Shown in pieces: positions 46,166 to 64,000 of a stretch of 64,000 bases of DNA; position 1 is the first letter of the stretch, and each line of letters opens with the position of its first letter. A program made the translations under genes and the position numbers. The stretch is from NCBI GenBank assembly GCA_905193385.1, contig CAJJOL010000009.1:18465-82464 (forward strand), in the 5' to 3' direction. Below the pieces are notes generated by a model that was given only the letters and a program-made list of their open reading frames with translations, was not told the DNA's origin and ran no database searches. The stretch is from an uncultured Prevotella sp. GTDB lineage: Bacteria; Bacteroidota; Bacteroidia; Bacteroidales; Bacteroidaceae.

Positions 46166-46170
46166 CACTT

Positions 46171-46716
46171 ATGCGTTATACCAAAGACATATTCGACATA
46201 TTGAGCAGAGGTGGATTTATATCGCAAAACTCCGTCTCACAGCAAATCTCTAACCTTTATGATGCCATAGAAGATGACTTTCAGCAATACCAAGACTACT
46301 TCAGCGGAATTGGCTTTTTGCTTGAAGGCGGCAACGGATATTATTATTTCTCACGATCGGAGAACAAGGTGGAACTGGCGGACAAGGTACAGCGAATGGC
46401 AGAATGGATAGACAGGATTGACTTCCTCAAAACCTTTAACACTGCATTCGGGTCAGGATTCACATTCCGCAAATCGAATATCCTGGAGCAGTTCTCAAGC
46501 GACATAGAACTCAAGGAAAAGGCACGTCACCTTTATACCGACCTCAAAACCAACGATGAGAAAATGGACAAGCTGATAGGCGACCTACAACGTCAGGGAT
46601 TCGTGGAACTGCAGGATGAACTTGACGGCACTTTCAAGGTGACAGCAGCCTTCCATTACATAGAAGAACTTATTGATTGTCTCACCATTATAGAAACCGA
46701 TACCGAACAAGCATGA
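46171..46716 (+). CDS. jetB: Wadjet JetB-like (MksE/KITE-like, DUF4194-type) protein
   Basis: ~180-aa acidic protein translationally coupled to both neighbours (stop/start overlaps). Position matches JetB. Confidence 0.5.
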   Translation: MRYTKDIFDILSRGGFISQNSVSQQISNLYDAIEDDFQQYQDYFSGIGFLLEGGNGYYYFSRSENKVELADKVQRMAEWIDRIDFLKTFNTAFGSGFTFRKSNILEQFSSDIELKEKARHLYTDLKTNDEKMDKLIGDLQRQGFVELQDELDGTFKVTAAFHYIEELIDCLTIIETDTEQA

Positions 46717-49700: not shown

Positions 49701-50360
49701 GATGTAGATAAGGTCATTCATGATATCAATAACGATTTCCGCGAACGCAATTTTGCCGGCGTCATAAAACTCATTGCCCTTCAACCCGTTCCTTCAGCAG
49801 ACAAGATGGTGCTGCTGATGAAGCGTATAAAGGATTTTCACGACGACAACCAATACACCATGGGTGAGCTAAACCTATTCTCCTCAGCCAATCGCGACGA
49901 CGTGAACCAGAAGGCTGTAGGACACCTGCTCGATCTGATGAAGTCGCTTGTTGACAATCCGCAACGACGATACCTTGCACTCTCTGACCTATTCCTGCTG
50001 CAGTTCCGCATCGTGGAGAACGACAACGACACGGGATGGGTGGACAAGCTGTCGCATGTGGGAAGCGAGGGAACGGACACATTGGTTAAGGCAATGATAA
50101 ACATCATGCTGATAAATGTATTCAAAGGAAAGGTAAGCCGTAAGTTCGGCGACTTCCGCATACATTGCATGATGGACGAAATCGGCAAGCTGCACCCGCA
50201 GAACGTGAAAGGCATACTCGACTTTGCCAATGCCCGAAACATACTGCTCATCAACTCTTCGCCCACCACATACAACGTTTCGGACTATCGCTACACCTAT
50301 CTGCTTAGCAAGGACAGCAAGTCGCAGACCGTGGTTCATCCTTTAATATCACAACAATAA
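46713..50360 (+). CDS. jetC: Wadjet JetC-like SMC-family ATPase (MksB/MukB-like)
   Basis: N-terminal Walker A GTQGVGKST, ~900 aa of coiled-coil, C-terminal signature-like LSHVGSEGTD followed ~35 aa later by Walker B HCMMDEIG. ATGA overlap with jetB. Confidence 0.7.
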   Translation: MRALRKIIFVNSAHIRYAEVRLDGNVHFIGTQGVGKSTLLRAILFFYNADKLHLGIPKEMKSYDEFYLPHANSYIVYEVEHEHGPFCVLTFRSSGRACYRFIDAAYRKEWLIDNNGDVTADSKVIRERLGGASMSKIIDRYEQYRDILYGNRQAVGKEFARFQLMESNRYQNIPRSIQNVFLNSRLDANFIKDIIIRSMSDEEANIDLGYYRRQVADFEQEYKDISCWYKLNQKGESIVRTQAENVVKTYRELLFMKRQITELCGELKYAVRTSRERLPLVEKKIDELMEEQNRLKRLISEIQQKFDMEKSSLNQEQGVVNDRLKRLKKRKEYYSAQKIEEILNRYEQEQILRVKLDGDNARLAELTAHFNDITAKYKALYQGAKNVLENYRQSQTNRIISLGMEKQAADERMLAEHTKQREDIEVAFADKITLATNYIEQLKGEKTELEKEMLKLKYWQPYKEETDALSKETNELALREKELNGLISATEAKINQLQTEYEKNEAEIMADSKAKLDAKQHEMDEVEGKLTEIDSLLERTKGSLYEWLEANKRDWEQNIGKVINEESVLYQTGLHPQKDEGTSLFGVKLDLMDLPLAVRKPAQLKAERAELDAALRSLKAEYVGLTELQEKLQDELKRRFAPKMRELREQKSYHETELRVIPQKRKTIQLKMEDYAAKAQHEKEERNNLLNTRLQDVQIRRTAADMELAKILNDKQKQLTSEDKRHQKAKEEIIKQYEQRVAEIRSDIILQEQKTDKKLQLLQQQEHEELHGRGADTRMVEECKASIKTTETELKYIDDHRRIVFDYQRDCEELFDHEEEFKTRKKLITDQFQQLNEKYDLRKQKHNETLNLLSKELNERREEKTRIDNDLHKAERFIHDKNLCPPMLAEAQERQTLRTPGLAVDELTGIIVSRQKSQDKLKSAVNVFKGNFTAKNTFNFRMELALDEDYLDFANNLEDFLVYNKIEEFRRRTSERYVDILGRVSKEMGDLTRHESDVDKVIHDINNDFRERNFAGVIKLIALQPVPSADKMVLLMKRIKDFHDDNQYTMGELNLFSSANRDDVNQKAVGHLLDLMKSLVDNPQRRYLALSDLFLLQFRIVENDNDTGWVDKLSHVGSEGTDTLVKAMINIMLINVFKGKVSRKFGDFRIHCMMDEIGKLHPQNVKGILDFANARNILLINSSPTTYNVSDYRYTYLLSKDSKSQTVVHPLISQQ

Positions 50361-50392
50361 AACACATCAGAAACAGCTGACTATATTCGTAT

Positions 50393-51274
50393 ATGAAGAT
50401 TACGTCATCTCTTATAGACAAGCTTATCAGACTTCGCTCAGGTGAGTCACTTCCGTCCAGTGCCCTACGTGGTGAATGGGTGGAAGAACTCCTAAGCGAC
50501 GGTGTGCTTATCAGCCGTTCACACGGAAGCAGAAGCTGCATAATTGCGGCTTCTCCAGATACATTGGAAAAAAGTCTGATGCATATCAACGAACGGTTAG
50601 GCCATCTCGACAAAATGAAAGAGACTCTTGACGCGGAAACAACAAGGTCAGAACAGGCGGCAGAAACGGGTAATTCCAAACTTGTGACAGCACGCTCATG
50701 CCCAGGTTTTCCAGTCAATTCATACGAACCAATCATATGCTGTCTGAACGGTAAGGAGCTGGTGGTCAATCCACAGGAAGGCACATTCCTATTCATTGCC
50801 GATTGGCAATCATTTGCCATACCTGCCGATGTGACCGTCGTAAACATCGAGAACATGGAGAACTTCCGCCTTATACGTCGTCAGCAATCCTTGTTTGCCT
50901 CTGCATTGGCAGGCAAACAACTGCTGTTCGTGTCGCGCTATCCGCAGTCGTCCGACCTACGGACATGGTTGCAGACCATCCCTAACCAGTACGTCCACTT
51001 CGGCGATTTCGACCTCGCCGGCATCCATATCTTCCTTACAGAATTTCAAAAACACCTCGGCACACGTGCCTCTTTCCTCATTCCGCAAGACATAGAACAG
51101 CGCATAAAGCATGGTTCGGCAGAGAGATACAACGACCAATATCCAAAATTCTGCCACCTCACCTCCAATATCCCGCCACTACAGCAACTGATAGATATGC
51201 TCCACAAATATCACCGCTGCTACGACCAGGAAGGATATATAGAGAATAGTCTGACAGAACATCACATCACTTAA
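50393..51274 (+). CDS. jetD: Wadjet JetD-like Toprim nuclease (MksG/topo VI-A-like), short form
   Basis: Toprim catalytic residues VVNIENMENF (Glu) and YVHFGDFDLAGIHIF (DxD), as in Spo11/topoVI-A and JetD. Only 293 aa, shorter than typical JetD. Confidence 0.6.
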   Translation: MKITSSLIDKLIRLRSGESLPSSALRGEWVEELLSDGVLISRSHGSRSCIIAASPDTLEKSLMHINERLGHLDKMKETLDAETTRSEQAAETGNSKLVTARSCPGFPVNSYEPIICCLNGKELVVNPQEGTFLFIADWQSFAIPADVTVVNIENMENFRLIRRQQSLFASALAGKQLLFVSRYPQSSDLRTWLQTIPNQYVHFGDFDLAGIHIFLTEFQKHLGTRASFLIPQDIEQRIKHGSAERYNDQYPKFCHLTSNIPPLQQLIDMLHKYHRCYDQEGYIENSLTEHHIT

Positions 51275-51699: not shown

Positions 51700-51707
51700 T
51701 ACCTTTG
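51700..51707 (+). promoter_or_regulatory. -7 box TACCTTTG
   Basis: TAnnTTTG ~22 nt upstream of the ATG at 51729, in a very AT-rich 380-bp spacer. Confidence 0.45.
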
Positions 51708-51728
51708 CAGCATAAAACAAAATCGAAT

Positions 51729-53018
51729 ATGGCATATCTAAATAGAGTCTTTGACTTGCGACTTAAAGCGCATCTTAAAGCAATGGGAGCAGTGCTCATT
51801 GAAGGACCAAAATGGTGTGGCAAAACCACCACTGCCAAGCAATTGGCCAATAGTGTTATTAGTTTACAAGATACTGACCATCGTGAAGAATATTTGGCTA
51901 CAGCCATTACCAAGCCCTCATTCTTATTAGAAGGGGAAGTGCCTCGCTTGATAGATGAATGGCAAGATGCCCCAATGCTATGGGATGCAGTGCGCACAAA
52001 GGTTGATGAGCGTGGCTTGCCTGGTCAATTCATATTGACAGGGTCTAACGCTATTGACGACAGTAAAATCCATCATAGTGGAACAGGGCGTATTTCCCGG
52101 ATGGAGATGCTGCCCATGAGCCTGTGGGAATATGGTGAATCTAACGGCAGCGTATCATTGATGGAGATGTTCGACAATCCTCAAGAAGAAATCTTCGCTA
52201 CCTCGGAACTAAAAATGGAAGAAATCATATTTGCTGCATGCAGAGGAGGTTGGCCAGCAACATTGAATTTAGGTGACGACAAGTCAAAATTACTTGTTGC
52301 CAAAGAGTATGTAAAGTCTGTATATAAGAATGACATATCACGCATAGATGGAGTAAAGAGAAATCAGAAGTTGGCGCACCTGATAATGAAATCATACGCA
52401 CGCAACATCTCAACATTGGCGAAAACCACATCCATATTGGCAGACGTTACTGCTTCTGATGATGTAGAATGTACCAGGCCTACGCTTGAAAGCTACATCG
52501 AGGCATTGGAAAAACTGTTTGTCATTCAGGACATAGAGGCTTGGTGCCCTTCCATAAGGAGCAAGACAACAATCCAAAGCAGACCCAAACGAGCGTTCTG
52601 TGATCCATCGGTTGCAGTCGCATTACTCAACCTGTCACCAGAATCCTTAATGACTCAGTTAAAGACATTTGGCTTTATTTTTGAGCAAATGTGCGCACGA
52701 GATCTTAGGGTGTATTCAGCCTCTCACGATAGCCGCCTGTCATACTATCGCGACCGCTACGGACTGGAAGCCGACTTGGTGCTTCATCTTGACGATGGAC
52801 GCTATGCTCTGATAGAGTGCAAACTTGGCAGCCGTGAAATAGAAGAAGGAGCCAAACATCTTTTGGAAATTAAACGACTTATTCAAGTGCATAATGAAAC
52901 AGAAAAGCAGGTGACGTTGCGCGAACCCGACTTGATGATTGTCATGACAGGTGGCAGCATGGCTTACACACGCCCAGACGGAGTCAAAGTCATACCGCTT
53001 GCTTGTTTGAAAGATTAA
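51729..53018 (+). CDS. AAA+ family ATPase with DUF4143 C-terminal domain (COG1373-like)
   Basis: N-terminal MAYLNRVFDLRLKAHLKAMGAVLIEGPKWCGKTTTA (Walker A). ~430 aa. Characteristic of the Bacteroides AAA_14/DUF4143 ATPase family. Confidence 0.75.
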   Translation: MAYLNRVFDLRLKAHLKAMGAVLIEGPKWCGKTTTAKQLANSVISLQDTDHREEYLATAITKPSFLLEGEVPRLIDEWQDAPMLWDAVRTKVDERGLPGQFILTGSNAIDDSKIHHSGTGRISRMEMLPMSLWEYGESNGSVSLMEMFDNPQEEIFATSELKMEEIIFAACRGGWPATLNLGDDKSKLLVAKEYVKSVYKNDISRIDGVKRNQKLAHLIMKSYARNISTLAKTTSILADVTASDDVECTRPTLESYIEALEKLFVIQDIEAWCPSIRSKTTIQSRPKRAFCDPSVAVALLNLSPESLMTQLKTFGFIFEQMCARDLRVYSASHDSRLSYYRDRYGLEADLVLHLDDGRYALIECKLGSREIEEGAKHLLEIKRLIQVHNETEKQVTLREPDLMIVMTGGSMAYTRPDGVKVIPLACLKD

Positions 53019-53033: not shown

Positions 53034-53717
53034 ATGGGAACAGTATTACTGGCACTCTGCTTCTGTGCGTTGTCGCTCGTCCTTGCCTTGTTTGTGGGCA
53101 TATCGCCCATAAGCGACAAGGCGAAAGTAAGGTTTATGTATGTCTGTGCTGCGCTGTCGTTGATGGCAGTGCCAATGATGAGCCATTATATTGCAGGGCT
53201 GAACGATATTGTGGACGAGCTGCGTTATCAAGCTGTGCTTGTGTTCATCGTCGTTGTGTGTTGCTATTGCTTCGTCATGGCAAATATGGTGAAGTACAAT
53301 GTCATGAAGAAAAAGGTGGCGGTGCTTGAGGACACGGTAGAGAAGCTGGAGCAAGAACGTGCGGCAGCAATGTCGCAAGCCGTGGATGAAGATCAGCAGC
53401 ACAAAGTACAAGAAGCACTCGACTGGTTTGCAGCAAAGATGAGCGTGTTCAGCAAAGAAGAGCAAGAGGCCATCAACGCTTGTGCCATTGCCTTTGCCGA
53501 GCGCGACCTGGTAGTAATACCCAAAGTCAGCATAGCCGTTAATGCCAAATGCAGCCAAGCCGACCTCATGGCGTATGCCAGTTCCACATTCTTCAAGATT
53601 GGCAAGAAGCGTAAGGATATTGCACGGTTCCTCAGCATTGTATTCGAAGCTTACTTCCCTGGTGGCGAGGGATTTGTGTATAAGAAGATGCCAGGAGCGA
53701 AAGAATGCCAGAAATAG
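53034..53717 (+). CDS. Hypothetical protein: 3 N-terminal TM helices plus cytoplasmic coiled-coil region
   Basis: Hydrophobic N-terminus (LLALCFCALSLVLALFVGI, VCAALSLMAVPMM, VLVFIVVVCCYCFVMA) then VAVLEDTVEKLEQERAAAMSQ coiled-coil. No family recognised. Confidence 0.5.
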   Translation: MGTVLLALCFCALSLVLALFVGISPISDKAKVRFMYVCAALSLMAVPMMSHYIAGLNDIVDELRYQAVLVFIVVVCCYCFVMANMVKYNVMKKKVAVLEDTVEKLEQERAAAMSQAVDEDQQHKVQEALDWFAAKMSVFSKEEQEAINACAIAFAERDLVVIPKVSIAVNAKCSQADLMAYASSTFFKIGKKRKDIARFLSIVFEAYFPGGEGFVYKKMPGAKECQK

Positions 53718-54150
53718 GTAGTTTAGGCATATTGGCTACGCCTTATTACGGCAAATTTAGCTCCAAGAAGAAAAACATAGTAAAACATTCGTTATTCTGA
53801 TTGTTTTGCGTTAACTTTGCACAGGATATCCACTTGCTGGAAGCCCAAAGGGCAAGCGGGTGGGTTTTGACTTTATGGAAATGGGCGTTTACTTAGCGCC
53901 TGTCTTTGACATGTCGTAACTTCGCAACTTACAGTAATCGTCAAAGGACGGTGGCAACCAGTAAATGCTCACGGTAAGGTATATTATACCCTGCCGTGAT
54001 TTGTCGTATATGTACTTATTGTATGTATACGGCTGCTCACGTATGGGATTAATATATACCATGCGTGGGCTTTCAGCGTTGTCCGTCTCGACGATTAGGG
54101 CAATGCGAAGGCCTCGACATGTGGGATGGGCAAAGGCGAATCCCACGCTT

Positions 54151-54158
54151 TATTTTTG
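54151..54158 (+). promoter_or_regulatory. -7 box TATTTTTG upstream of the BREX-like operon
   Basis: TAnnTTTG ~77 nt upstream of the brxP-like ATG, after a 500-bp non-coding spacer. Confidence 0.35.
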
Positions 54159-54234
54159 TAGAGGTACAGCAATTTTTTATAATTATCGTCGGAGATTGGG
54201 GTTCTATCCGCACCTAATAAGAGGTAGAGCCGAA

Positions 54235-56736
54235 ATGTACAAAATAACATGGGACAAAGAAACGGGAGGAGTACTGCTCCACTCTCGCATTGTGGAAGGT
54301 ACGTTGGGTATCTCCCCCCGTCCTGTGTTCTTTGAGGAGCTGGACTTGTTGGGGCTTGATAAACTTGGATGGACTTATCCTCATGTGGAAGAGCCGATTA
54401 TGTGGGCTGTCAACAAGCAGTATTGGTATAGGGGAGTGAGGCTCTTTGATGCCAAGGGCGCCAATATATACACCAAACCTACACTGGAGATACAACCTGG
54501 TATAGAACCAATGGAGTTGGTGCCTGTTGACGTGAAGAAGATGCTTCAGCGTACATCTGATTTGATGTTCGTATTGGAGAATGAAGCCATAGAATTTATC
54601 CGTGACACTTATTTGGCGTATGCCAAAGCAAATAAAACCTACAACAAGGCTGATGCCAACAAACTGGACTTCGAGACGATGGCAGAGCGCGTGGAAAAGA
54701 AGAGCAAGCAACACATGGCTGTGGTTAAACAGGATTGTGACTCGTTCGATATCATGCCTCTTGCTACGGCAGAAAAAGAAGGCAAGCGTGTGCTGCTATC
54801 TACCAAAATAGACCGCTTTATAGCAAGTTTCTCTGGTGGTAAGGATTCGCAAGTGGTACTCGACTTGTGTACACGTGCCATTCCTCCTACAGACTTTGAG
54901 GTCATTTATAGCGACACCGGCTATGAACTGCCTCCTTCTCTCGCTCTTTACAAAGACGTGGAGGCGTACTATAAAAAGAAGTTTCCTTCACTCCGTTTCC
55001 TTACAGCCAGCAACCACGAGTCGGTACTGAGCTATTGGGACAAGATTGGCACACCAAGTGACAATCACCGTTGGTGCTGCTCGGTGATGAAGACGGCACC
55101 GTTGTACCGAATGTTGAAAGTTGAAGGCAACAAGCAAGCACGTGTTCTGACATTCGACGGAGTGAGAGCGGAGGAGTCTGTAAGGAGAAGTGGATATAAT
55201 CGAATTGGAAAAGGTGTTAAACATTCGACTGTTATCAATGCAAGTCCAATATTATCTTGGTCTTCTGTTGAAGTATTTTTGTATTTGTTCCGCTATGGCT
55301 TCCCAATTAATATTGCATACAGACGTGGTATAACAAGAGTTGGATGTATTATTTGTCCTTTTTCCTCTGAATGGAATGACATGGTGGTTAATCAAACTTT
55401 TCATGAAAAACTTGAGCCCTTTTTGTCACGAATTGAAGACAATGTAAAACGTAACAAGGTACAGGATTTTAGAAATTATATTGAAGATGGAAACTGGAAA
55501 CGACGAGCCGGCGGTCGTGACATTCATTCTTCCTCAGCTATTGACTTTCTGTCTTCAAAGCCAGACTTGAATGTCATGTTGATCAAACCACAGAAGCATC
55601 CTTTAACATGGATTAGCGCTATTGCTCCATTTACAGGTTCTGAAAAACAAGGAGAACTCAAATACAGGAATGAAGTATACTCATACAAGTGTGAAAATAA
55701 TGGTGATGTTTATAGTCTGTCTTTCAAAAATACAGCAAAAAGTTTAGCGTTGCAAGGATTGATAAAAAGGGCTTTGAATAAGGCCACATTTTGCATAAAT
55801 TGTGAAGCTTGTGAAGTAGAATGTCCGACAGGTGCATTATCTATTTTACCAAAAGCCGAAATAGACACTAATAAATGTATCCATTGTGGGAAATGCCTAA
55901 ATTTCCATGAAACTGGATGTATTGTAGCTCATTCATTAAAAATAACAGAAACACCAAAGAGTAAAATGAAACTGATTAGTTATAATAATTTTGGATTACG
56001 TGAAGAATGGTTAGACTACTATATGTCTAATCATGACGATTATTTTCAGACAACAAATCATGGACTAAATGTCAAGGAGCAGTTGCCAAGTTTTGTAAAA
56101 TGGCTTGTTCAGGCAGAAATTCTTTCTGATACAAAGAAAAGAGAAATTACCCCATTTGGAAAGTTGCTTATCGAAATATATGAGAACAATCCAAGTTTAG
56201 TATGGCAAATTATTTGGATAAACTTGACGTACAATTCTCCTATAGCACATTGGTATTCGCAGAATGTTTCTTTCGGAAGCAATTTCACTGATGCTGATTT
56301 GAGAGAAGGGGTAAAGAATGATTATTCCAGTGACAGCACAACAACGATAAAGAATGTTGTGTATGCTCTCACTCGTACATTTAAGGAGAGTCCTATAGGT
56401 GAGGAACTTGGTCAAATGACTAAAGTTGATAAGAACACATATACTCGATCTGGATTTTCAGATATTGAGGTGGAAGCAGTCGCATATTCATTATACAAAT
56501 ATGCACAGATAAAGGAAAGCAACTTGATGAGAGTTTCCGACTTTTACAAAGCTGATGAAAAGGACGGAATATATAAGGAATTTGGTATTTCAAAAAGTGA
56601 TTTGGAAAAGAAATTGCGTTTTCTTTCTTCTGATAGTCACAGAGTATTGGTGGCAGAACTAAATATGGGTTTGGATCATATTACACTAAGAGATGATTTA
56701 ACTCCTGAAAAAGCTTTAGAGACATTAGCGAAATGA
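54235..56736 (+). CDS. brxP: BrxP-like protein: PAPS-reductase/PP-loop ATP-pyrophosphatase domain plus 4Fe-4S ferredoxin-type Cys cluster
   Basis: PP-loop FSGGKDSQVVLDLC and DTGYELPPSL of the PAPS_reduct family (as in DndC/SspD/BrxP). CINCEACEVECPTG...CIHCGKCLNFHETGC dicluster motif. 834 aa. First gene of a brxP-brxC-pglZ-brxL-order operon. Confidence 0.6.
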   Translation: MYKITWDKETGGVLLHSRIVEGTLGISPRPVFFEELDLLGLDKLGWTYPHVEEPIMWAVNKQYWYRGVRLFDAKGANIYTKPTLEIQPGIEPMELVPVDVKKMLQRTSDLMFVLENEAIEFIRDTYLAYAKANKTYNKADANKLDFETMAERVEKKSKQHMAVVKQDCDSFDIMPLATAEKEGKRVLLSTKIDRFIASFSGGKDSQVVLDLCTRAIPPTDFEVIYSDTGYELPPSLALYKDVEAYYKKKFPSLRFLTASNHESVLSYWDKIGTPSDNHRWCCSVMKTAPLYRMLKVEGNKQARVLTFDGVRAEESVRRSGYNRIGKGVKHSTVINASPILSWSSVEVFLYLFRYGFPINIAYRRGITRVGCIICPFSSEWNDMVVNQTFHEKLEPFLSRIEDNVKRNKVQDFRNYIEDGNWKRRAGGRDIHSSSAIDFLSSKPDLNVMLIKPQKHPLTWISAIAPFTGSEKQGELKYRNEVYSYKCENNGDVYSLSFKNTAKSLALQGLIKRALNKATFCINCEACEVECPTGALSILPKAEIDTNKCIHCGKCLNFHETGCIVAHSLKITETPKSKMKLISYNNFGLREEWLDYYMSNHDDYFQTTNHGLNVKEQLPSFVKWLVQAEILSDTKKREITPFGKLLIEIYENNPSLVWQIIWINLTYNSPIAHWYSQNVSFGSNFTDADLREGVKNDYSSDSTTTIKNVVYALTRTFKESPIGEELGQMTKVDKNTYTRSGFSDIEVEAVAYSLYKYAQIKESNLMRVSDFYKADEKDGIYKEFGISKSDLEKKLRFLSSDSHRVLVAELNMGLDHITLRDDLTPEKALETLAK

Positions 56737-57185
56737 AAGCATTACTTGTTACATACACAGATATGATTCTTTCTTTAACATTGGGTAATTATAGAGGATG
56801 GATTTCGTTATCAAAGCCACTATACCTTTTGTCTTTGATTGAATGTGTCAAGTATGGTAAGTTATGCTGTAATAAATTTAGCTTAGATGATGTTTACTTA
56901 CAACAAATGTTTTTCTCACAATATGAGAAGGTCTATGGTGAGAAAAAATGTTGCTTGTCAACATTTCTTAAACCATTTTATCATCTTGCAAGTTCTCCAT
57001 TCTATCATTTAATATGGAAGCGTGACTTTGAATCTCCGAGTATGTCATCCTCTCCTTCTGCCAAATACCTCCGCGAGAATCTTCTCTATGCAAAATTGGA
57101 CGATGAGCTATGGGAGCTATTACAAGACGCAGAGAACAGGGATTATATCAAACAGAACATCATCAGTCGATACCTGACAAAATAA
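56733..57185 (+). CDS. Hypothetical 150-aa protein inserted between the brxP-like and brxC-like genes
   Basis: ATGA-overlapped start with the brxP-like gene. AT-rich codon usage like its neighbours. No motif recognised. Confidence 0.45.
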   Translation: MKALLVTYTDMILSLTLGNYRGWISLSKPLYLLSLIECVKYGKLCCNKFSLDDVYLQQMFFSQYEKVYGEKKCCLSTFLKPFYHLASSPFYHLIWKRDFESPSMSSSPSAKYLRENLLYAKLDDELWELLQDAENRDYIKQNIISRYLTK

Positions 57186-57209
57186 CTATAACAAACCAAT
57201 CATACACTT

Positions 57210-60200
57210 ATGGCAACTAAGTATGACGATATAATAAAGCTTCGTGGTGGCAAAGCCGCTTACGACATAGCAGAAGAAAAAAAGGGTGAATGGGTTTCGT
57301 TCATCCCCAATGAACAATTTAACAACGTGTTGCGTACGGTCATAAAGAGTGTGCGTGGAAACGACATTGACAACCACAAGAGTTTTTGGATAAACGGAAC
57401 ATACGGCACTGGCAAGAGCCATGCCGTAGCAGTTGTCAGTCACTTGCTGGGTGATGCCGTGGAAGACATACGCCAGTGGGTGGACTACGAGTATAAGGAC
57501 GCAAAGTTTGCCACACTCCGTCAAGCCATTTATTCACTTCGCGAGACGAAGCGTTTGCTCACGGTCAATGTTTATGGACTGGGAGCAATGACACATCCCG
57601 GAGACTTGGCTCTTGTGTTGCAGAAGGCGGTAACAGAAACGCTCCGCAAGTACAAGATAGAGATAGCTGTGCCGACGGATTATGAAAACTACATTGAGCA
57701 AATACACCAGAACCCGGAAATATGGAATCATCTGATAGATACTCATACAGCTCTGTCGTCTGTTGTTGCCGACAGTGATCAACTGGCAGAAAGCCTGAAG
57801 ACCGGCGACCTTGGTATATTCCACCGCGTGAGCGACACGCTGCGTGAGGCACAACTCGATATACGCCTTAACAACGACAATATCAAGCAATGGCTTTGTG
57901 AGGTGCAAGACCGTCTGACAGAGTTGGGAACGTATAACGGTTTGCTGATTGTTTGGGACGAGTTTACCGACGTTATGACCGACGCCATTGGTGTACCCGT
58001 GTTGAAACAATTGCAAGAGGTGGCTCAGAAGTTCATGAATGAGGACTGTAATTCCTACCTGTTCCTTATCTCGCATCCGTCTGCATTCAACGGCATCGAC
58101 TCCGAACAACTGAAGCAGACCGATGGGCGATACCACCGCATGAAGTACAACATGGAATCTGTATCGGCATTCAAGATTATGTCGCGCAAGTTTGAAATCA
58201 TTGATGAGGAGCGCCATGCCCAGATGTGCCAGCAGTTCTACACGATGAATCCGCAACTGCTTGACATCTTTACAGCCACCAGCAACGACCAGCAGTCCAC
58301 CCGTGAAGACCTATTTAATCTCTATCCCCTGCATCCGGGTACAGCTAACCTAGCCACTCACTACGCTACTGTGGTAGGCTCATCGAGCCGAAGCGTATTC
58401 GAGTTTTTGGGACAGAATGATTCCATCCGCGATTTTCTTGACAGCGAGGAGAGTTTCTTGAACCGTGACACCATCACGGCAGACTATCTGTGGGACTATG
58501 TATTGAAGGTGTTCCAAGACGATGTGACCAACTATGGAGCCGTAACGGAACGCTACAACTCATACAAACTACAGGTCAGCAATGAAGGTGCAGCCTATTT
58601 TGCTGTATTTAAGGGAATATTGTTGCTCAACGCCTTCAACAATGTGTCGGGAGAGAACAACAACGGACTGGTAACACCATCGGAGGACAACATACATGCC
58701 CTGTTTGCTGGAACACGTTATGACAGTGAGGTGGACACAGTACTACAGTGGTTCAATGAACAAGGCATCATACAACGTGCGCCAGGCGGATTGTACTCAG
58801 TACAGTTCTCTGCCCTGCCTTCAGGTGAGATAGAAGAAAAGAAAACAGAGATGCGCAATGTGCAGTATCGCTTTACGGAGCAGATACTTAATTTCTCAGA
58901 TGCAGCCAGCACGGCTTTTGAGAAAAAGATGATGCAGAAAGTGATACGCCCATATGGATTCAAGTTTTTCTCCGACCATCAGAACGAAGCCGTGCTCAGA
59001 AGCCAAATTAAGAATGCACGAAAGGATACGAAGACGAGCACCATGTTCTTCGCTCTGCTGATGGCAAGAAACAACGCTGAACTTGGCGTGCTGCGCAGTT
59101 TTGCAGAGAAATGTGCCGAAGACGAGAACGACAAAGACCTGAAGAATATTGTGTATCTTGTGTTTGACGAGGTGTTTACCGATGCTAAGTATGAGCAGTT
59201 TATAGAATATCAAGCCAACTATGCATGTGCCAGCAGCCATGGCTTCCTCGATCAGCAGAAAGTACACCGCGACCATGCGGTGTCGATGGTAAAAGAGTGG
59301 ATGGATAGCGTGCAGCGTGGCAATGCCATTGTGTATATAAATGGTGAAGATAAACAGCCCATTTCCGTTAAGCATCTTTCAAGCATTGTCAACAGTGTGA
59401 TATCTCCGACCATATTTCCATATGGTCCGGATGCTTGTGAATTGTTACGTCAAAAAGCACCGTCAACATTCTGGCGCCAACAGAACTCGAAAGAGATTGT
59501 GCGTACATTCATATTTGCTACTTCAAAGGAAGAACTGGCAACCATAACCGCTCAGATGCGCCCTATACAATATCTTGTACAAGAGTGCTTGGACGACAAC
59601 ATGGAGTGGAAGGGCGATGTGCCAGAGAACCATCCGTTCAAGGTTGTATATGACAAGGTACAGAGTATCATCAAGTATGCAGACAAGAGCCTGCCATTCA
59701 ACTTTGATGATAAATTTTCTGTTCTGCAGAAGCCCCCATACGGCTTATACGGTAGTTTTGCTCCAATGGCAATGATGGCTTTTGCCCTGAAGTCTTGGGC
59801 AAACAAAATATTCGATATGCAGGGCAAGCCACGCGACAAGAATGCATTAATTGACGATATCGTATGGCTGTTCAAGGTGTGGGATGACAAAAAATCGAAC
59901 AGTAAGCTGAACTTCAAGTTCCAAACACCCGAAGAAGGCAAACTGTGCAAAGACCTCATATCGCTTTTCAAGCTGAACAACAAGAACAATGACTATTCGG
60001 ATGTGACCAGTCTGAAAGATGCCCGTTACGCCATAACATCAGAGTTTCTTGGCAAGAAAGGATATCCGCTGTGGACGGTGAAATACGCCTCGGAAGCTGC
60101 TTTTGCCAGTTTGCCAGTCATGCTGAACATTACGGATGAAGAGTGCAGACTGATAGACAATATCGTCACCATCTGTATGGAACGCGACCTGCGGAATCCA

Positions 60201-60695
60201 GCGTTGGTAAAGGATACTATAGACCTCATCTCTGAACTGAGGTTCGAAATGAAGAACATCCTCAATGTGGATGCAGCCTTCTCTGATGGCTTTAAGAATT
60301 ATCTGATGCAGCTTGACTTCATCAACATACAAGAAGATGAAGTGGATGACGTGAAGCACTTCATCGAGCAGAATCTACAATCAACAGTAGGTTATTGGAC
60401 TGAAGAAGAGGTGGAGAAGAAGGCATTACAATGGAATTCTGCAAGAAGTTCATCTGCAAATGGTCAGCAAAAAACAAATGGCAATGGTTGGCAACAAAGC
60501 AACGACATAGTTTCCGAACCGCCTACCAATAATACTGTACAAACATCCTATACGGATTCTAACGCATTGGAGGAGAAGCGCAAGCAAGCAAAAAAGCACA
60601 TTTCAAGCATTGTTTCCCTTGATGATGCAAAGGCTCTGCTGACCCGACTGTGTGACGAATGTGGAGAGTGGCTGTTGGACAAGATAAACGGTTAA
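57210..60695 (+). CDS. brxC: BrxC/PglY-like large P-loop ATPase (DUF499-type)
   Basis: 1161 aa with N-terminal Walker A WINGTYGTGKSHAV, the GKSH P-loop seen in BrxC. Size and position in the operon match BrxC. Confidence 0.6.
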   Translation: MATKYDDIIKLRGGKAAYDIAEEKKGEWVSFIPNEQFNNVLRTVIKSVRGNDIDNHKSFWINGTYGTGKSHAVAVVSHLLGDAVEDIRQWVDYEYKDAKFATLRQAIYSLRETKRLLTVNVYGLGAMTHPGDLALVLQKAVTETLRKYKIEIAVPTDYENYIEQIHQNPEIWNHLIDTHTALSSVVADSDQLAESLKTGDLGIFHRVSDTLREAQLDIRLNNDNIKQWLCEVQDRLTELGTYNGLLIVWDEFTDVMTDAIGVPVLKQLQEVAQKFMNEDCNSYLFLISHPSAFNGIDSEQLKQTDGRYHRMKYNMESVSAFKIMSRKFEIIDEERHAQMCQQFYTMNPQLLDIFTATSNDQQSTREDLFNLYPLHPGTANLATHYATVVGSSSRSVFEFLGQNDSIRDFLDSEESFLNRDTITADYLWDYVLKVFQDDVTNYGAVTERYNSYKLQVSNEGAAYFAVFKGILLLNAFNNVSGENNNGLVTPSEDNIHALFAGTRYDSEVDTVLQWFNEQGIIQRAPGGLYSVQFSALPSGEIEEKKTEMRNVQYRFTEQILNFSDAASTAFEKKMMQKVIRPYGFKFFSDHQNEAVLRSQIKNARKDTKTSTMFFALLMARNNAELGVLRSFAEKCAEDENDKDLKNIVYLVFDEVFTDAKYEQFIEYQANYACASSHGFLDQQKVHRDHAVSMVKEWMDSVQRGNAIVYINGEDKQPISVKHLSSIVNSVISPTIFPYGPDACELLRQKAPSTFWRQQNSKEIVRTFIFATSKEELATITAQMRPIQYLVQECLDDNMEWKGDVPENHPFKVVYDKVQSIIKYADKSLPFNFDDKFSVLQKPPYGLYGSFAPMAMMAFALKSWANKIFDMQGKPRDKNALIDDIVWLFKVWDDKKSNSKLNFKFQTPEEGKLCKDLISLFKLNNKNNDYSDVTSLKDARYAITSEFLGKKGYPLWTVKYASEAAFASLPVMLNITDEECRLIDNIVTICMERDLRNPALVKDTIDLISELRFEMKNILNVDAAFSDGFKNYLMQLDFINIQEDEVDDVKHFIEQNLQSTVGYWTEEEVEKKALQWNSARSSSANGQQKTNGNGWQQSNDIVSEPPTNNTVQTSYTDSNALEEKRKQAKKHISSIVSLDDAKALLTRLCDECGEWLLDKING

Positions 60696-60699
60696 ATCT

Positions 60700-63117
60700 A
60701 TGTATAAGGAGTTTGGTACATTGGAAGACCTCTGTCATGAAATAGAGGTCGACAAACATTGGACGGGAGCGGAGAGCAGTCTCCGCAACCGCTATCCAAT
60801 ACGTTTTGTATTGTTTGAGAATTTTGGCGACTTTGGCGATTTCGTGCAAGTGTGCCAAGACCATGACGTGTATGTGCAAAGCATAGAAAAATGGATGAAA
60901 GACGGACAGGACGACAAACTTATCACCTATTCGCAACTTGCCGCATTATTCGAGGCTTACATTAAAAGTCTGCCTGCAAACGATTTCGTCATCGCGCCAT
61001 TTTCGGAGATAACAAGATTCTATGACAATGCACATTACGCTGAGTTTGATTCGTTGCTGAAGACAATACGTCTTATCCAATCACCGGAAGAAGCCCAACA
61101 TGATCACCAGCGTATATACGTGCCTGTCATCGGTATGCAGAGCAAGGTGAGCAAATTCAAGGACGATCCAAATATCCACATATGGGAATACCGCTCTGGG
61201 ACAGAGTATGACAACTATCACCTGATTCTTACGAAGGGAACAACATACGGTGTGAAAGGACTTGAAGAACATTATACGCTGTGTGAAGACCTACGCCATT
61301 GGATTGCCCTTTGGAAAAATGTGGGTGCCAAGATAAAGCCGCAGATTATTTGTACATCAAAGTGTATTTTCGCCAACAGTAATAATGCCCAGCCAGACAA
61401 TGCCTTCAAGTATACGATTTGCAACAATGCGTTTGAATTCTTGACCAAAGGACTCTGTATTGATTTTGGCAAATTGAATGCAAGAGAAGAAGATATGCCG
61501 TATTGGGAAGAACTGGCTTCCAATATTGATGTGGCAGATTTTGATTTTGACGCTTTTGTCAATCAACGGTTCAATACATCAAGTTTGAATGAAGAGAATG
61601 CCTTTGTGCAGACATGGTTTGAATATAGGGATGAGTTTTCACGCTGGCTGCTGAAAACTTATTTTGTATGGAAAACAGAGGAATGCAATTATCTCATTAG
61701 GGTCTTGGAGAACGTTGCCTCTTTGGGCTCGTCAGATTTGTTCTCACAAATAGCTACCCAAATCTTTGAAGAGTCTCTTGACGAGACCAGTATTAGCCAA
61801 CGTTTGGCTCTGCTTAGAGAAGCAAAAAGACAGCATGTGCAGATAACGAGTTTGGCAGAACAAAAGGTTAAGGCAAAGTTGTCGGCAATGGCTGCTGATC
61901 CAGAACGTGGGCCATTGTTTGCGATGAAATATATGTCACCACTCACTTTGTCAGAACAATGTCTTATGACGGAATGGGTTGGTCACGGAAAGATAGAAAA
62001 GAACTATATAAAGATTCTTTTCCCTGAATTGTATGCCTATTTGTTGCCTTCAAGTGTGCAAACAGAGAAAGTCAATGGTTGGATAAATGAATATTTCCAG
62101 GAATATTGTCTTTCAAAAGTGGGAAATAGTCAAACAGAAAACCTGACAAACAAGCTCAAGGAACTTAATGCTTCACAAGTCAGTTTTGAGACATGGCGCA
62201 ATGGTTTCAAGACTGTAAAGACATTCATGCACAACAGGCAGGATATTGACATTTACTATTGGATAGATGGGCTTGGTGTAGATTGGATTCCATTCATAAC
62301 ACGAGTTATTGAAAAACACAAGGCAGATGGAGTGTTCTTGAATGAAATTTATGTCGCAGCTTCAGAATTGCCTACAGTCACTTCCGTAAACAAGACGAAG
62401 TTGGATGAGATGGCAGATGGCAAACTGGTGAAAATCGGAGATGTTGATAAGTTTGCACATACGCCGAAAAAATATCCTGCATACCTTATTGAGGAGTTTC
62501 GAATTGTAGAAGATGCCATTTCGAAAGTTCTCTCGCTGTACAATGGCAAGAAGATAGCATTTGTCTCTGATCATGGAGTCAGCTATATGGCACAGTTCGG
62601 AGCAGGACTTAACCTCGCAGGCGTGGAGACAGATCATGCTGGACGTTGTGGACATTGGCTCAAAGGGTCTGCTCCGGCAGATAATAACTATGTTGTTTTG
62701 GATGATGGCCAGACTCTGTGTTCATTGAATAACAACTCTCTTTCCACCAAAACGCCAGTGGGACAGGGTGCTCATGGAGGCGCAACACCTGAAGAGGTAC
62801 TTGTACCTATCATAATTGTTTCCAGTCAAAAAAATGCAAATGTATATTCTGCGAAATTGCAGTCAAACGAAATTGTTGCAAGTAGCCCCATAGTAAGATA
62901 TACGATAAAGGGAATCAGCAGCATAGACACTCCATATGTAACATACAATGGTGTTGACTATGAGCTTCACAATATGGATGGAGATGTTTATGAGAGTGAA
63001 CGATTGAATCTCGTCAGCACTTCAACAAGAATAATCCTACATATAGGAGAATTTAAGCAAACAGACAATCTGAGCATCAACACTGGTGTTCAGGAAGACG
63101 ACTTATTCGGATTTTAA
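60700..63117 (+). CDS. pglZ: PglZ-like alkaline-phosphatase-superfamily protein
   Basis: 805 aa. C-terminal half carries AP-superfamily metal-ligand motifs YYWIDGLGVDWIPF and IAFVSDHGVSY. Position between the brxC-like and brxL-like genes. Confidence 0.55.
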   Translation: MYKEFGTLEDLCHEIEVDKHWTGAESSLRNRYPIRFVLFENFGDFGDFVQVCQDHDVYVQSIEKWMKDGQDDKLITYSQLAALFEAYIKSLPANDFVIAPFSEITRFYDNAHYAEFDSLLKTIRLIQSPEEAQHDHQRIYVPVIGMQSKVSKFKDDPNIHIWEYRSGTEYDNYHLILTKGTTYGVKGLEEHYTLCEDLRHWIALWKNVGAKIKPQIICTSKCIFANSNNAQPDNAFKYTICNNAFEFLTKGLCIDFGKLNAREEDMPYWEELASNIDVADFDFDAFVNQRFNTSSLNEENAFVQTWFEYRDEFSRWLLKTYFVWKTEECNYLIRVLENVASLGSSDLFSQIATQIFEESLDETSISQRLALLREAKRQHVQITSLAEQKVKAKLSAMAADPERGPLFAMKYMSPLTLSEQCLMTEWVGHGKIEKNYIKILFPELYAYLLPSSVQTEKVNGWINEYFQEYCLSKVGNSQTENLTNKLKELNASQVSFETWRNGFKTVKTFMHNRQDIDIYYWIDGLGVDWIPFITRVIEKHKADGVFLNEIYVAASELPTVTSVNKTKLDEMADGKLVKIGDVDKFAHTPKKYPAYLIEEFRIVEDAISKVLSLYNGKKIAFVSDHGVSYMAQFGAGLNLAGVETDHAGRCGHWLKGSAPADNNYVVLDDGQTLCSLNNNSLSTKTPVGQGAHGGATPEEVLVPIIIVSSQKNANVYSAKLQSNEIVASSPIVRYTIKGISSIDTPYVTYNGVDYELHNMDGDVYESERLNLVSTSTRIILHIGEFKQTDNLSINTGVQEDDLFGF

Positions 63118-63120
63118 ATT

Positions 63121-64000
63121 ATGCAAGCAACTATCACACAAAAGATTCGGGAGCAGTTCTCCTCGATGGCTATATATAAAGACCCTGCATCAACCAACAG
63201 CTTGTTTGCCGGGCGAAACCTTCCGTCATTTGTAAAAGACTTTATTCTAAAGCGGTTTATCAATGCGGATGGAAATGTCAACCGTGCTGAGTTGACAAAC
63301 TTCCTTGATATGGTCATACCGCAAAAGCAGACAGAGGTAAAAGACCGTTTGGCTTCTGGTGAGGAACTTACTTTGCTCACACGTTTCATCATCTACATAG
63401 ACTTGGTGAAAGGTGTGCGCAGATTCGGAATCCCTGATCTTGGCATCAAAATAAATGAAGGACAAATACCTGAGTACGTTTACAAAAATCATCAAGGCGA
63501 ACTCGTTGATGGTGAGAAATGGGGAATTATAAAACTTTCTGTACTTCCTGATGAAGATGGAAAGAAAAATCATGTTGAGATGGTTGATTACAAACCATTC
63601 AAGCCTTACCGCAGTGTTGACATTAATTACTTGCGAAACGCTCGTGCAGTTTTCTCAACGGAGGAGTGGATAGATGTGCTTTTGTCGTCTATGGAATATG
63701 AAGCTGATGGTTTTGAGACAATGACACAGAAAATGGAGTTCTTGACACGTCTTCTTATTTTTGTCGAGCCTCGATTGAATGTTATAGAACTTGCTCCAAA
63801 AGGAACGGGTAAGTCATTTGTGTTTGGAAACCTCTCAAAGTATGGATGGCTTGTGAGTGGTGGTAAAGTTACACGTGCCAAACTTTTCTATGATAAGGCA
63901 AAGCAACAGAATGGTATTATCAAGAACCATGATTTCACTGCCTTTGACGAGATTCAGACCATTATATTCCAGGAGCCAGCAGAAATACAGGCTGCTCTCA
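63121..64000 (+). CDS. brxL: BrxL-like Lon-related ATPase/protease, N-terminal ~293 aa (3' end outside window)
   Basis: Open frame to the window end (not in the ORF table because no stop is reached). N-terminal ...SLFAGRNLPSFVKDFIL resembles the BrxL AFAGKVVRKDL start. Walker A IELAPKGTGKS. Confidence 0.55.
   Translation, partial: MQATITQKIREQFSSMAIYKDPASTNSLFAGRNLPSFVKDFILKRFINADGNVNRAELTNFLDMVIPQKQTEVKDRLASGEELTLLTRFIIYIDLVKGVRRFGIPDLGIKINEGQIPEYVYKNHQGELVDGEKWGIIKLSVLPDEDGKKNHVEMVDYKPFKPYRSVDINYLRNARAVFSTEEWIDVLLSSMEYEADGFETMTQKMEFLTRLLIFVEPRLNVIELAPKGTGKSFVFGNLSKYGWLVSGGKVTRAKLFYDKAKQQNGIIKNHDFTAFDEIQTIIFQEPAEIQAAL

What the first reader, a model, noticed from the sequence alone, without database searches (positions are those of the whole stretch)
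56733..57185. Unknown 150-aa ORF embedded inside the BREX-like operon
Canonical type 4 BREX has no gene between brxP and brxC. Here a 150-aa ORF is translationally coupled to the brxP stop (ATGA) and ends 25 nt before brxC, so it is almost certainly co-expressed. The protein is Cys-containing (KYGKLCCNKF, KKCCLSTF) and has no recognisable motif. It could be a novel accessory or regulatory subunit.
Basis: inference. Interest (0 to 1): 0.55.

Follow-up and report, generated by a model that had tools for sequence, protein, structure and literature searches.

The report
Stand-alone phosphorothioate-reader gene in BREX-4
The small gene between brxP and brxC is real and encodes a nuclease-free copy of the "sulfur-binding domain" that recognises sulfur-modified (phosphorothioate) DNA, so it is probably an optional reader of the mark this defence system writes on host DNA; one paper has already named what is probably the same gene mcrA.

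Summary
The 150-aa ORF (56733..57185, +) is there as described. Its ATG overlaps the brxP stop (ATGA) and it ends 24 nt before brxC, inside a complete type 4 BREX operon (brxP, ORF, brxC, pglZ, brxL). It is a real gene: about 200 same-length homologues, median dN/dS 0.14, and the same position in every locus that carries it.

It is not motif-less. It is a stand-alone sulfur-binding domain (SBD):
- Profile against PDB 8H0L (SBDHga bound to phosphorothioate DNA): E=1.8e-17.
- AF2 model pLDDT 91; the top 14 Foldseek hits are all SBDs.
- The cavity positions K28 and P81 are invariant, and position 84 is His in 43 of 50 sequences.

Yuan et al. (Nat Commun 2026) already list a gene "mcrA" between brxP and brxC in Bacteroides salyersiae and show it is dispensable for phosphorothioate synthesis.

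New here:
- There is no nuclease domain.
- The gene is optional: present in 40 of 61 brxC-anchored loci, lost by deletion in at least one lineage, and absent from one archaeal locus.
- Its N-terminal two-thirds and the C-terminal half of BrxP form one swappable hypervariable block on a near-identical BrxC backbone.

Most likely it is an accessory reader matched to its writer. Its downstream role is untested.

The parts
56733..57185 (+). Stand-alone sulfur-binding-domain (SBD) protein, 150 aa. This is the finding.
   Evidence: ORF. 199 homologues. Profile against PDB 8h0l SBDHga, E=1.8e-17 over residues 4-147. AF2 pLDDT 91.4. Foldseek top 14 hits are all SBDs, TM 0.82 to 8h0l. dN/dS 0.14.
56733..56736 (+). 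ATGA overlap of the brxP stop and the SBD start.
   Evidence: Read directly. Comparable tight junctions (4-nt overlap to 5-nt gap) occur in all related loci.
56814..56819 (+). Codons K28-P29, aligned to the sulfur-cavity residue K26 of SBDHga.
   Evidence: Alignment to 8h0l. Cavity residues H25, K26, L75, P76 and H79 are defined in PMC10602919. K28 and P29 are invariant in 50 unique sequences.
56973..56984 (+). Codons P81-F-Y-H84, aligned to P76...H79 of the SBDHga sulfur cavity.
   Evidence: P81 is invariant. Position 84 is H in 43, Y in 6 and F in 1 of 50 sequences.
57018..57059 (+). Predicted long L4 loop (residues 96-109): coil in the model and variable between loci.
   Evidence: DSSP of the AF2 model. 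Column entropy 2.2 bits. The role of L4 length in sequence selectivity is taken from PMC10602919.
54235..56736 (+). brxP: PAPS reductase, 4Fe-4S ferredoxin-type domain and SspB-like (DUF4007) C-terminal region. The true start is probably M at 54235, not the ORF start at 53965.
   Evidence: The PADLOC BrxP match starts at residue 91 of the 923-aa ORF. Pfam finds PAPS_reduct and Fer4. The tblastn matches in all loci begin at this Met. The DUF4007 assignment is from PMC12914056.
55200..57040 (+). Hypervariable, swappable block: BrxP residues ~320-833 plus SBD residues 1-~105.
   Evidence: DNA identity to L002 is 93-99% on both sides. Inside the block it falls to about 65% at the 5' edge and is otherwise unalignable. 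Protein bins give 15-50% identity inside against 85-100% outside. The variable parts of BrxP and the SBD cluster together (partial Mantel r=0.84, p=2e-4, 18 loci; r=0.76, p=5e-4, 55 loci, no discordant pairs).
57210..60695 (+). brxC (BrxC/PglY ATPase, SspC-like).
   Evidence: PADLOC PDLC02490, E=0.
60700..63117 (+). pglZ (brxZ).
   Evidence: PADLOC PDLC02560, E=1e-202.
63121..64000 (+). brxL, 5' part; it runs off the window.
   Evidence: Frame translation. PADLOC BrxL E=1e-125 and Pfam BrxL_N plus BrxL_ATPase.

Best explanation
The ORF encodes a stand-alone, nuclease-free sulfur-binding domain (a winged-helix reader of phosphorothioate, PT, DNA). It is made together with BrxP from the same transcript.

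BrxP and BrxC write Rp-phosphorothioate links into host DNA; this has been shown for the B. salyersiae type 4 BREX. The SBD most likely binds those links through the conserved cavity formed by K28, P81 and H/Y84. It would use its variable L1, A3 and long L4 elements to fit the sequence context written by its own BrxP variant. On this view it is an optional accessory reader that reports or stabilises the 'self' mark for the BrxC-PglZ-BrxL machinery. It is not a restriction enzyme.

Shown here: homology, fold, conserved cavity residues, operon position, purifying selection, optional presence, and co-variation with the variable half of BrxP.
Inferred: PT binding, motif matching, and any link to the BREX effectors.
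For: Homology and fold:
- phmmer to 8h0l_A (SBDHga), E=4.8e-7; family profile E=1.8e-17 over the full length.
- AF2 pLDDT 91.4, pTM 0.88.
- Foldseek PDB hits 1-14 are SBDs of Hga, SprMcrA and ScoMcrA; TM 0.82 to 8h0l.

Binding pocket:
- The SBDHga cavity residues H25, K26, L75, P76, H79 (PMC10602919) align to S/A27, K28, K/R/V80, P81, H84.
- K28 and P81 are invariant, and position 84 is H, Y or F in 50 unique sequences.
- The backbone-contact segment S104-S107 of SBDHga aligns to the near-invariant P108-S109-A110-K111.

Context:
- All 22 genome loci have the order brxP-SBD-brxC-pglZ wherever the contig allows.
- The gene sits within a few nucleotides of the brxP stop.
- No terminator-like site lies between brxP and brxC.
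- BREX-4 makes PT, with brxP and brxC as the minimal set (PMC12914056).

Matched-reader inference:
- BrxP residues ~350-800 and SBD residues 1-105 form one block that differs completely between loci whose BrxC is up to 97% identical.
- The two parts never separate in 55 loci.
- L4 is 14 residues of coil. Long L4 loops make the base-specific contacts in SBDSpr and SBDSco.
Against: - No binding data exist for this family. Two of the five cavity positions differ from SBDHga (S/A for H25; K/R/V for L75).
- The gene is dispensable for PT synthesis in B. salyersiae.
- It is absent from 21 of 61 related loci, including loci whose BrxC is 96% identical to the window's. It has been lost by deletion or frameshift in some. 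It therefore cannot be the only way these systems tell self from non-self.
- Co-variation with the BrxP variable part may simply reflect physical adjacency within one recombination block (linkage) rather than matched specificity.
- More distant members of the same fold are fused to methylase-associated and DpnI_C-type domains, so the fold is not restricted to sulfur recognition.
Confidence: 0.6

Rival explanations
1. Writer modulator. The SBD works with BrxP rather than with the effectors. It would bind freshly made PT sites, or the variable DUF4007 half of BrxP, and so set PT density, prevent re-nicking, or help product release. This would be a DndB-like tuning role.
For: The gene is tightly coupled to brxP. 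It co-segregates with the BrxP variable half and not with BrxC. It is dispensable for PT synthesis as such, which fits a modulator. Its optional presence also fits fine-tuning.
Against: No interaction data exist. The text of PMC12914056 reports only that PT synthesis does not require the gene; I could not see the numbers in its Fig. 3B. Linkage alone could explain the co-segregation.
Confidence: 0.15
2. Shield or decoy. The nuclease-free SBD coats PT sites and protects them. The threat could be PT-dependent type IV nucleases (SBD-HNH or SBD-PD-(D/E)XK) met after horizontal transfer, or oxidative damage of PT.
For: It has the reader domain of PT-dependent nucleases without any nuclease. Near-identical loci occur in contigs with very different taxonomic labels, so the island is probably mobile. 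PT links are oxidation-sensitive (abstract of PMC12914056).
Against: Purely speculative. Covering on the order of 400 PT per 10^6 nt would need abundant protein. A generic shield would have no reason to be hypervariable together with BrxP.
Confidence: 0.07
3. Transcriptional regulator. The protein is a winged-helix DNA binder that controls the BREX operon and does not read PT.
For: The SBD is a winged-helix domain (PMC10853773). The weaker Foldseek hits are PadR-, LmrR- and RTP-type winged-helix proteins. Some loci carry a second, divergently transcribed SBD-like gene upstream of brxP, a typical position for a regulator.
Against: A position in the middle of the operon overlapping the brxP stop is unusual for a regulator. 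The conserved residues are those of the sulfur cavity. A regulator would not be expected to vary together with the enzyme's variable half.
Confidence: 0.06
4. True PT-dependent restriction factor ('McrA'), as the published name implies. It would recruit a nuclease in trans, for example PglZ, to PT-DNA.
For: Named mcrA and treated as 'restriction (McrA)' in PMC12914056. IMG calls cluster members 'putative restriction endonuclease'. PglZ of type I BREX has been reported as a metal-dependent nuclease (title of PMC12205998).
Against: The 150 residues are fully taken up by the SBD fold, and no HNH or PD-(D/E)XK domain is present. Cutting PT-DNA in a cell that makes PT at the matching motif would be suicidal. 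The deletion mutant and the brxP-mcrA-brxC clone were both viable.
Confidence: 0.04

Closest known systems
SBDHga, the sulfur-binding domain of the PT-dependent PD-(D/E)XK endonuclease Hga of Hahella ganghwensis (PDB 8H0L; Hu et al., NAR 2023, PMC10602919)
   Same: Closest sequence and structural relative (profile E=1.8e-17, TM 0.82, ~24% identity). It shares the K-P...P-x-x-H cavity signature and the C-terminal Y-A-x-L-D-x-E-L-[WF]-E-L-L-Q helix.
   Different: The window protein is the domain alone, with no nuclease. Cavity positions 27 and 80 differ from SBDHga. Its L4 is a 14-residue coil without the A4' helix, whereas SBDHga has a 6-residue L4 that was linked to sequence-promiscuous binding.
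SBDs of ScoMcrA (5ZMO) and SprMcrA (7CC9, 7CCD): SBD-HNH type IV PT-dependent restriction enzymes
   Same: Same fold (TM 0.66-0.73). They have a long L4, as predicted here.
   Different: Only 12-17% identity, with no significant sequence-level hit. Those proteins carry HNH (and SRA) domains and cut PT-DNA; this one has no catalytic domain.
'mcrA' (HMPREF1532_02792) of the Bacteroides salyersiae DSM 18765 type 4 BREX operon (Yuan et al., Nat Commun 2026, PMC12914056)
   Same: Same position, immediately upstream of brxC (HMPREF1532_02793) and cloned as brxP-mcrA-brxC. It was named for similarity to ScoMcrA. It is very probably the orthologue.
   Different: I could not obtain its sequence, so orthology rests on position and naming. 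The paper treats it as a restriction component. In the text I could read it does not say that the protein lacks a nuclease, is optional across loci, or varies with BrxP.
SspE and DndFGH: PT-sensing partners of the Ssp and Dnd modification systems
   Same: Functional analogy: a PT writer (SspBCD, homologous to BrxP and BrxC) paired with a protein that senses PT in host DNA.
   Different: Unrelated folds. SspE senses PT through a DUF262 domain and has its own nuclease domain. These partners are large enzymes, not a 150-aa binding module.
Specificity-module shuffling in R-M systems (hsdS target-recognition domains of type I R-M)
   Same: A hypervariable block flanked by near-identical sequence and exchanged between otherwise conserved systems.
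   Different: Here the block spans parts of two genes (writer C-terminal half plus reader N-terminal two-thirds). That it sets the DNA motif is inferred, not shown.

Membership tests
Sulfur-binding domain (SBD) of PT-DNA readers | Significant sequence homology to an experimentally characterised SBD | tested here: met
   phmmer E=4.8e-7 and profile E=1.8e-17 to 8h0l SBDHga, full-length alignment.
Sulfur-binding domain (SBD) of PT-DNA readers | SBD fold (helical winged-helix with a two-strand sheet) | tested here: met
   AF2 pLDDT 91.4. Foldseek ranks 1-14 are all SBD structures, TM 0.66-0.82. The next hits (Cdc6/ORC winged-helix domains) drop to TM 0.47 or below.
Sulfur-binding domain (SBD) of PT-DNA readers | Hydrophobic sulfur cavity: a central proline plus flanking Lys, His, Tyr or aliphatic side chains | tested here: met
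   By alignment, K28 = K26, P81 = P76 and H84 = H79 of SBDHga. K28 and P81 are invariant and position 84 is H, Y or F in 50 sequences. Positions 27 (S/A) and 80 (K/R/V/L) differ from H25 and L75. The geometry was not checked in 3D.
Sulfur-binding domain (SBD) of PT-DNA readers | Selective binding of Rp-phosphorothioate DNA | not testable with these tools
   Needs EMSA or another binding assay with stereo-defined PT oligonucleotides.
PT-dependent type IV restriction endonuclease (ScoMcrA, SprMcrA, Hga) | A nuclease domain (HNH or PD-(D/E)XK) fused to the SBD | tested here: not met
   The protein is 150 aa and all of it lies in the SBD fold. There are no Pfam hits. Homologues are 140-158 aa. It should not be filed as McrA or as a restriction endonuclease.
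Type 4 BREX (brxP-brxC-pglZ-brxL) | All four core genes present, adjacent and on the same strand | tested here: met
   PADLOC BrxP, BrxC, PglZ and BrxL hits. Coordinates 54235-64000.
Type 4 BREX core component | Present in all or nearly all type 4 BREX loci | tested here: not met
   Present in 40 of 61 brxC-anchored metagenome loci with a complete brxP. Absent from the Methanosphaera plasmid locus. Lost by internal deletion in L091, L093 and L094. It is an accessory gene.
BrxR-type or other winged-helix transcription regulator of BREX | Homology to BrxR (WYL) or another regulator family; usually a separate or upstream transcription unit | tested here: not met
   No Pfam, PADLOC or NCBIfam regulator hit. 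The gene lies inside the operon and overlaps the brxP stop.

The most novel reading that the evidence does not exclude
The C-terminal half of BrxP and the N-terminal two-thirds of the SBD form a single exchangeable writer-reader specificity cassette. Swapping it would reprogram both the PT motif that BREX-4 writes and the motif its reader recognises, much as hsdS shuffling does in type I R-M. The nuclease-free SBD would then be the element through which BrxC-PglZ-BrxL sense 'self' phosphorothioate. That would also place the motif determinant in BrxP rather than BrxC, which the published brxC swap experiments did not resolve.
Probability: 0.3. Interest if true: 0.75.

Novelty: new variant of a known kind. 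Interest (0 to 1): 0.52.

Why it matters
How BREX systems tell self from non-self and stop phage is still unclear. For type 4 BREX only the writing step (BrxP plus BrxC make PT) has been shown. A dedicated PT-binding protein without a nuclease, encoded inside the operon, is a candidate for the missing reader and gives a simple handle for experiments.

The mosaic structure found here makes two testable predictions. First, the PT motif is set by the variable half of BrxP rather than by BrxC.

Small SBDs that may be sequence-selective are also of practical interest. SBDs are already used to target PT-oligonucleotides and to separate PT stereoisomers (PMC10602919, PMC11349849).

Public annotation of this family is either 'hypothetical protein' or 'restriction endonuclease'; the second is misleading, because the protein has no nuclease domain.

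Tried and rejected
- **Family libraries.** Pfam, PADLOC and PHROGs scans of the ORF gave nothing. NCBIfam gave only a sub-threshold hint to 'PT-DNA restriction endonuclease' (E=0.07), which the PDB searches then confirmed. A precomputed Pfam tag (PF26340) on one homologue, P0120, was not reproduced by my own scan.
- **Cys motif (metal or redox site).** Rejected, because the cysteines are not conserved.
- **BrxP-SBD fusions.** I suspected that long proteins carrying a C-terminal SBD-like domain, found in the 1.8-billion-protein search, were such fusions. Eight of the ten scanned against PADLOC matched an MzaA-like model, none matched BrxP, and two gave no hit. A second set of ten scanned against Pfam included MTaX1/DpnI_C-, sigma-70- and helicase-containing proteins, and six gave no hit.
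- **Conserved SBD C-terminus (residues 106-150) as a BrxC-binding surface.** It tracks BrxC in identity. I set this aside because the same Y-A-x-L-D-x-E-L-x-E-L-L-Q helix is conserved in SBDHga, so it is part of the domain core. Between close loci its identity reflects the recombination boundary.
- **SBD tied to particular BrxP types.** Rejected. Loci with and without the gene are interspersed within BrxP clusters.
- **Published data.** No supplementary data of PMC12914056 are held, so I could get neither the PT levels of the mcrA mutant nor the B. salyersiae sequence.
- **Other searches.** The plasmid search found only two matches covering at least 80% of BrxP; the archaeal Methanosphaera one was examined. 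Looking up P0074 gave more syntenic loci but no organism names.
- **Promoter scan.** It uses sigma-70 consensus sequences and is not informative for Bacteroidota.
Full report
**1. The observation**

The window has an ATG-initiated ORF of 150 codons at 56733..57185 on the + strand. Its ATG (56733-56735) overlaps the TGA (56734-56736) of the upstream long ORF. Its TAA ends 24 nt before the ATG of the next long ORF at 57210.

PADLOC identifies the neighbours as follows:
- BrxP: PDLC02510, E=1e-265. The match begins at residue 91 of the 923-aa ORF, so the real start is probably the Met at 54235.
- BrxC: PDLC02490, E=0.
- PglZ: PDLC02560, E=1e-202.
- BrxL: starts at 63121 and runs off the window; PDLC02505, E=1e-125.

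The setting is therefore a complete type 4 BREX operon with one extra gene. No terminator-like site on the + strand separates brxP from brxC.

**2. It is a real gene**

A search of 5.8 billion proteins returned 199 homologues. Those listed are nearly all 140-158 aa, apart from a few fragments, with identity falling from 98% to about 48%.

In 22 species-level genome loci found with the family alignment, every contig long enough shows the order brxP-ORF-brxC-pglZ. Identity of the small protein falls to 34% across them. The gap between the brxP stop and the ORF start is always between a 4-nt overlap and 5 nt.

Pairwise dN/dS over 41 pairs has a median of 0.14.

**3. What it is**

Pfam, PADLOC and PHROGs give no hit. 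NCBIfam gives only a sub-threshold hint to 'phosphorothioated DNA-binding restriction endonuclease'.

A sequence search of the PDB hits one entry: 8H0L, the sulfur-binding domain of Hga bound to phosphorothioate DNA. The single sequence gives E=4.8e-7. A profile of 38 family members gives E=1.8e-17 and covers residues 4-147.

An AlphaFold2 model built on that alignment is confident (pLDDT 91.4, pTM 0.88). Its 14 best Foldseek matches in the PDB are all sulfur-binding domains: Hga TM 0.82, then SprMcrA and ScoMcrA. After these the scores drop to generic winged-helix proteins.

Hu et al. (PMC10602919) define the SBDHga sulfur cavity as H25, K26, L75, P76 and H79. They list backbone contacts that include T82 and S104-S107. 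By the HMMER alignment these map to:
- cavity: S/A27, K28, K/R/V80, P81, H84;
- backbone contacts: S87 and P108-S109-A110-K111.

In 50 unique sequences from related loci, K28, P29, N47, P81 and W95 are invariant. Position 84 is His in 43, Tyr in 6 and Phe in 1.

The protein ends where the domain ends, so there is no room for an HNH or PD-(D/E)XK nuclease.

**4. What is already known**

Yuan et al. (Nat Commun 2026, PMC12914056; preprint June 2024) showed that type 4 BREX of gut Bacteroidales makes phosphorothioate, with brxP and brxC as the minimal genes.

In B. salyersiae DSM 18765 they list a gene 'mcrA' (HMPREF1532_02792) directly before brxC (HMPREF1532_02793). They cloned brxP-mcrA-brxC as a unit and deleted mcrA, and they report that it is not needed for PT synthesis. 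They could not delete brxP. They describe McrA only by reference to the S. coelicolor PT-dependent restriction enzyme, and treat it as the restriction part.

I could not obtain that gene's sequence. Identity with the present family therefore rests on position and name.

Other sources:
- The BREX survey of Krishnan and colleagues (PMC12839542) does not list an SBD or winged-helix protein among type 4 components.
- The SBD survey in PMC10602919 describes only fused architectures.
- No paper in the searchable library combines BREX with 'SBD'.
- Public names for cluster members are 'hypothetical protein' (WP_297241764.1, uncultured Prevotella sp.) or 'putative restriction endonuclease'.

**5. New observations: the gene is optional**

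I anchored a metagenome scan on BrxC, which is unbiased with respect to the small gene, and recovered 80 loci.

Among the 61 with a complete brxP, the brxP-brxC spacing is sharply bimodal. It is 438-484 nt with the SBD gene in 40 loci, and 5-133 nt without it in 21 loci.

Loci without the gene include some whose BrxC is 96% identical to the window's (L025, L026, L068). They are scattered inside the BrxP clusters.

Evidence for loss:
- L091, L093 and L094 keep the first ~97 nt of the gene, followed by a 317-nt deletion relative to L086. This shows loss by deletion.
- L059 is frameshifted and L074 is disrupted.
- An archaeal plasmid type 4 locus has brxP overlapping brxC, with nothing between them.

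**6. New observations: a swappable writer-reader block**

Compared with the window, locus L002 is 93-99% identical in DNA over the first ~900 nt of brxP. It is again 93-99% identical from about codon 100 of the SBD gene through brxC and pglZ. Between about 55200 and 57000, identity falls to about 65% at the 5' edge and the DNA is otherwise unalignable.

At the protein level:
- BrxP residues 1-300: 96-100% identical in L002 and at least 76% in the other close loci (L003-L014).
- BrxP residues 350-800: 15-50% identical.
- SBD residues 1-105: 8-60% identical.
- SBD residues 106-150: 87-100% identical in most bins.
- BrxC: 85-100% identical.

The same pattern recurs in many loci. Three main cassette types sit on BrxC backbones that are 84-97% identical.

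Pairwise identities of the BrxP and SBD variable parts cluster together after controlling for BrxC and the BrxP N-terminus. The partial Mantel r is 0.84 (p=2e-4) in 18 loci and 0.76 (p=5e-4) in 55 loci. No pair of loci combines similar BrxP variable parts with dissimilar SBD variable parts, or the reverse. In contrast, 62 of the 107 pairs with at least 90% identical BrxC have unrelated cassettes.

The variable part of BrxP covers the end of the PAPS-reductase domain, an alpha+beta domain, the Fe-S domain and the SspB-like DUF4007 region (domains).

Within the SBD, the most variable elements are L1, the A3-L3 region and L4. The cavity residues, B2 and A6 are the most constant.

L4 is a 14-residue coil in the model. 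According to PMC10602919, long L4 loops make the base-specific contacts in SBDSpr and SBDSco, while the short L4 of SBDHga goes with promiscuous binding.

**7. Interpretation**

The identification as a nuclease-free SBD is firm. That it binds phosphorothioate DNA is a strong inference from the conserved cavity and from sitting inside a PT-writing operon, but it is untested.

Its hypervariability together with the writer's variable half suggests one of two things: a reader matched to the motif written by its own BrxP, or a co-evolving contact with that half of BrxP. Because the two segments are physically adjacent, linkage alone could also produce the co-segregation.

The gene is dispensable for PT synthesis, its deletion is tolerated, and a third of related loci lack it. 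It is therefore an accessory. It can be neither the sole self-sensor nor a PT-cutting enzyme.

I rank the possibilities as follows:
- accessory reader feeding PT status to the BREX machinery: 0.6, counting identity and PT binding;
- modulator of the writer: 0.15;
- shield or decoy: 0.07;
- transcription regulator: 0.06;
- nuclease-recruiting 'McrA': 0.04.

**8. Verdict**

Its idea of an accessory subunit is right in outline. The protein is not unknown, though: it is a stand-alone member of the sulfur-binding domain family, and what is probably the same gene has appeared in the literature as 'mcrA'.

It is a new architectural and contextual variant of a known domain. The optional distribution and the writer-reader cassette were not, as far as I could find, described before. 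Interest is moderate (0.52). It would be higher if the matched writer-reader cassette model holds.

Noticed in passing
L001:4391-4954 (-); also L003:133-669 (-), L005:4376-4912 (-), L036:~476-898 (-): Some related BREX-4 loci carry a second stand-alone SBD-like gene (178-187 aa, ~31% identical to the window ORF). It is transcribed divergently just upstream of brxP. It hits 8h0l SBDHga at E=1.8e-10 and has a Y-P-x-x-Y cavity motif instead of K-P-x-x-H. The window has no such copy.
   Followed up: partly
window 44951-51274 (+): A four-gene Wadjet/Mks-like cluster lies upstream of the BREX operon, so this is a defence island. The genes are a 404-aa protein with no hit, MksE (PF21980, E=1e-40), a 1227-aa DUF3584 SMC-like ATPase (weak JetC hit), and a 293-aa DUF7281/JetD_C-like protein. 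The PADLOC Jet models match only weakly.
   Followed up: partly
window 51705-53018 (+): A 437-aa AAA_14 plus DUF4143 ATPase matches the PADLOC candidate defence family PDC-S01 (E=1e-65). It sits between the Wadjet-like cluster and BREX.
   Followed up: no
window 53965-54234 (+): The brxP reading frame is open for 90 codons upstream of the homology-supported start (M at 54235). The PADLOC match and all orthologues begin at that Met, so the 923-aa ORF over-extends the gene.
   Followed up: yes
window 53034-53717 (+): A 227-aa ORF directly upstream of brxP has a hydrophobic N-terminal half and no family hit. It occupies the place where L001, which is 97% identical in the BREX genes, has the second SBD-like gene instead.
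   Followed up: no
L104 and L105 (1-6000): In two metagenome contigs brxP is broken by insertion sequences (IS1595-type and DDE_Tnp_1 transposases), while the SBD gene, brxC, pglZ and brxL remain intact. The PT writer in these loci appears to be inactivated.
   Followed up: no
L006, L004, L009, L011, L019 (record titles): Loci up to 99% identical to the window are labelled Oscillibacter, Clostridia, Acutalibacteraceae, Lachnospiraceae or Erysipelotrichaceae MAGs, while others are Prevotella, Bacteroides or Odoribacter. This means either mis-binning or recent horizontal transfer of the island. The window itself is closest to an uncultured Prevotella sp. (L001; WP_297241764.1).
   Followed up: no
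proteins P0233, P0258, P0260, P0235, P0240, P0282, P0287: More distant members of the same domain family occur as C- or N-terminal modules in larger proteins. Partners include MzaA-like regions, MTaX1 plus DpnI_C, sigma-70 regions 2 and 4, and SF2 helicases. The 50%-identity library holds 1273 representatives at E<=1e-3, most of the best ones stand-alone and ~145 aa. The context of those outside BREX-4 was not examined.
   Followed up: partly
window 60200-60695 (BrxC residues ~1000-1161): The C-terminal ~160 residues of BrxC are markedly more variable between loci (24-70% identity in most) than the rest of the protein. This is a second, smaller variable region in the operon.
   Followed up: no
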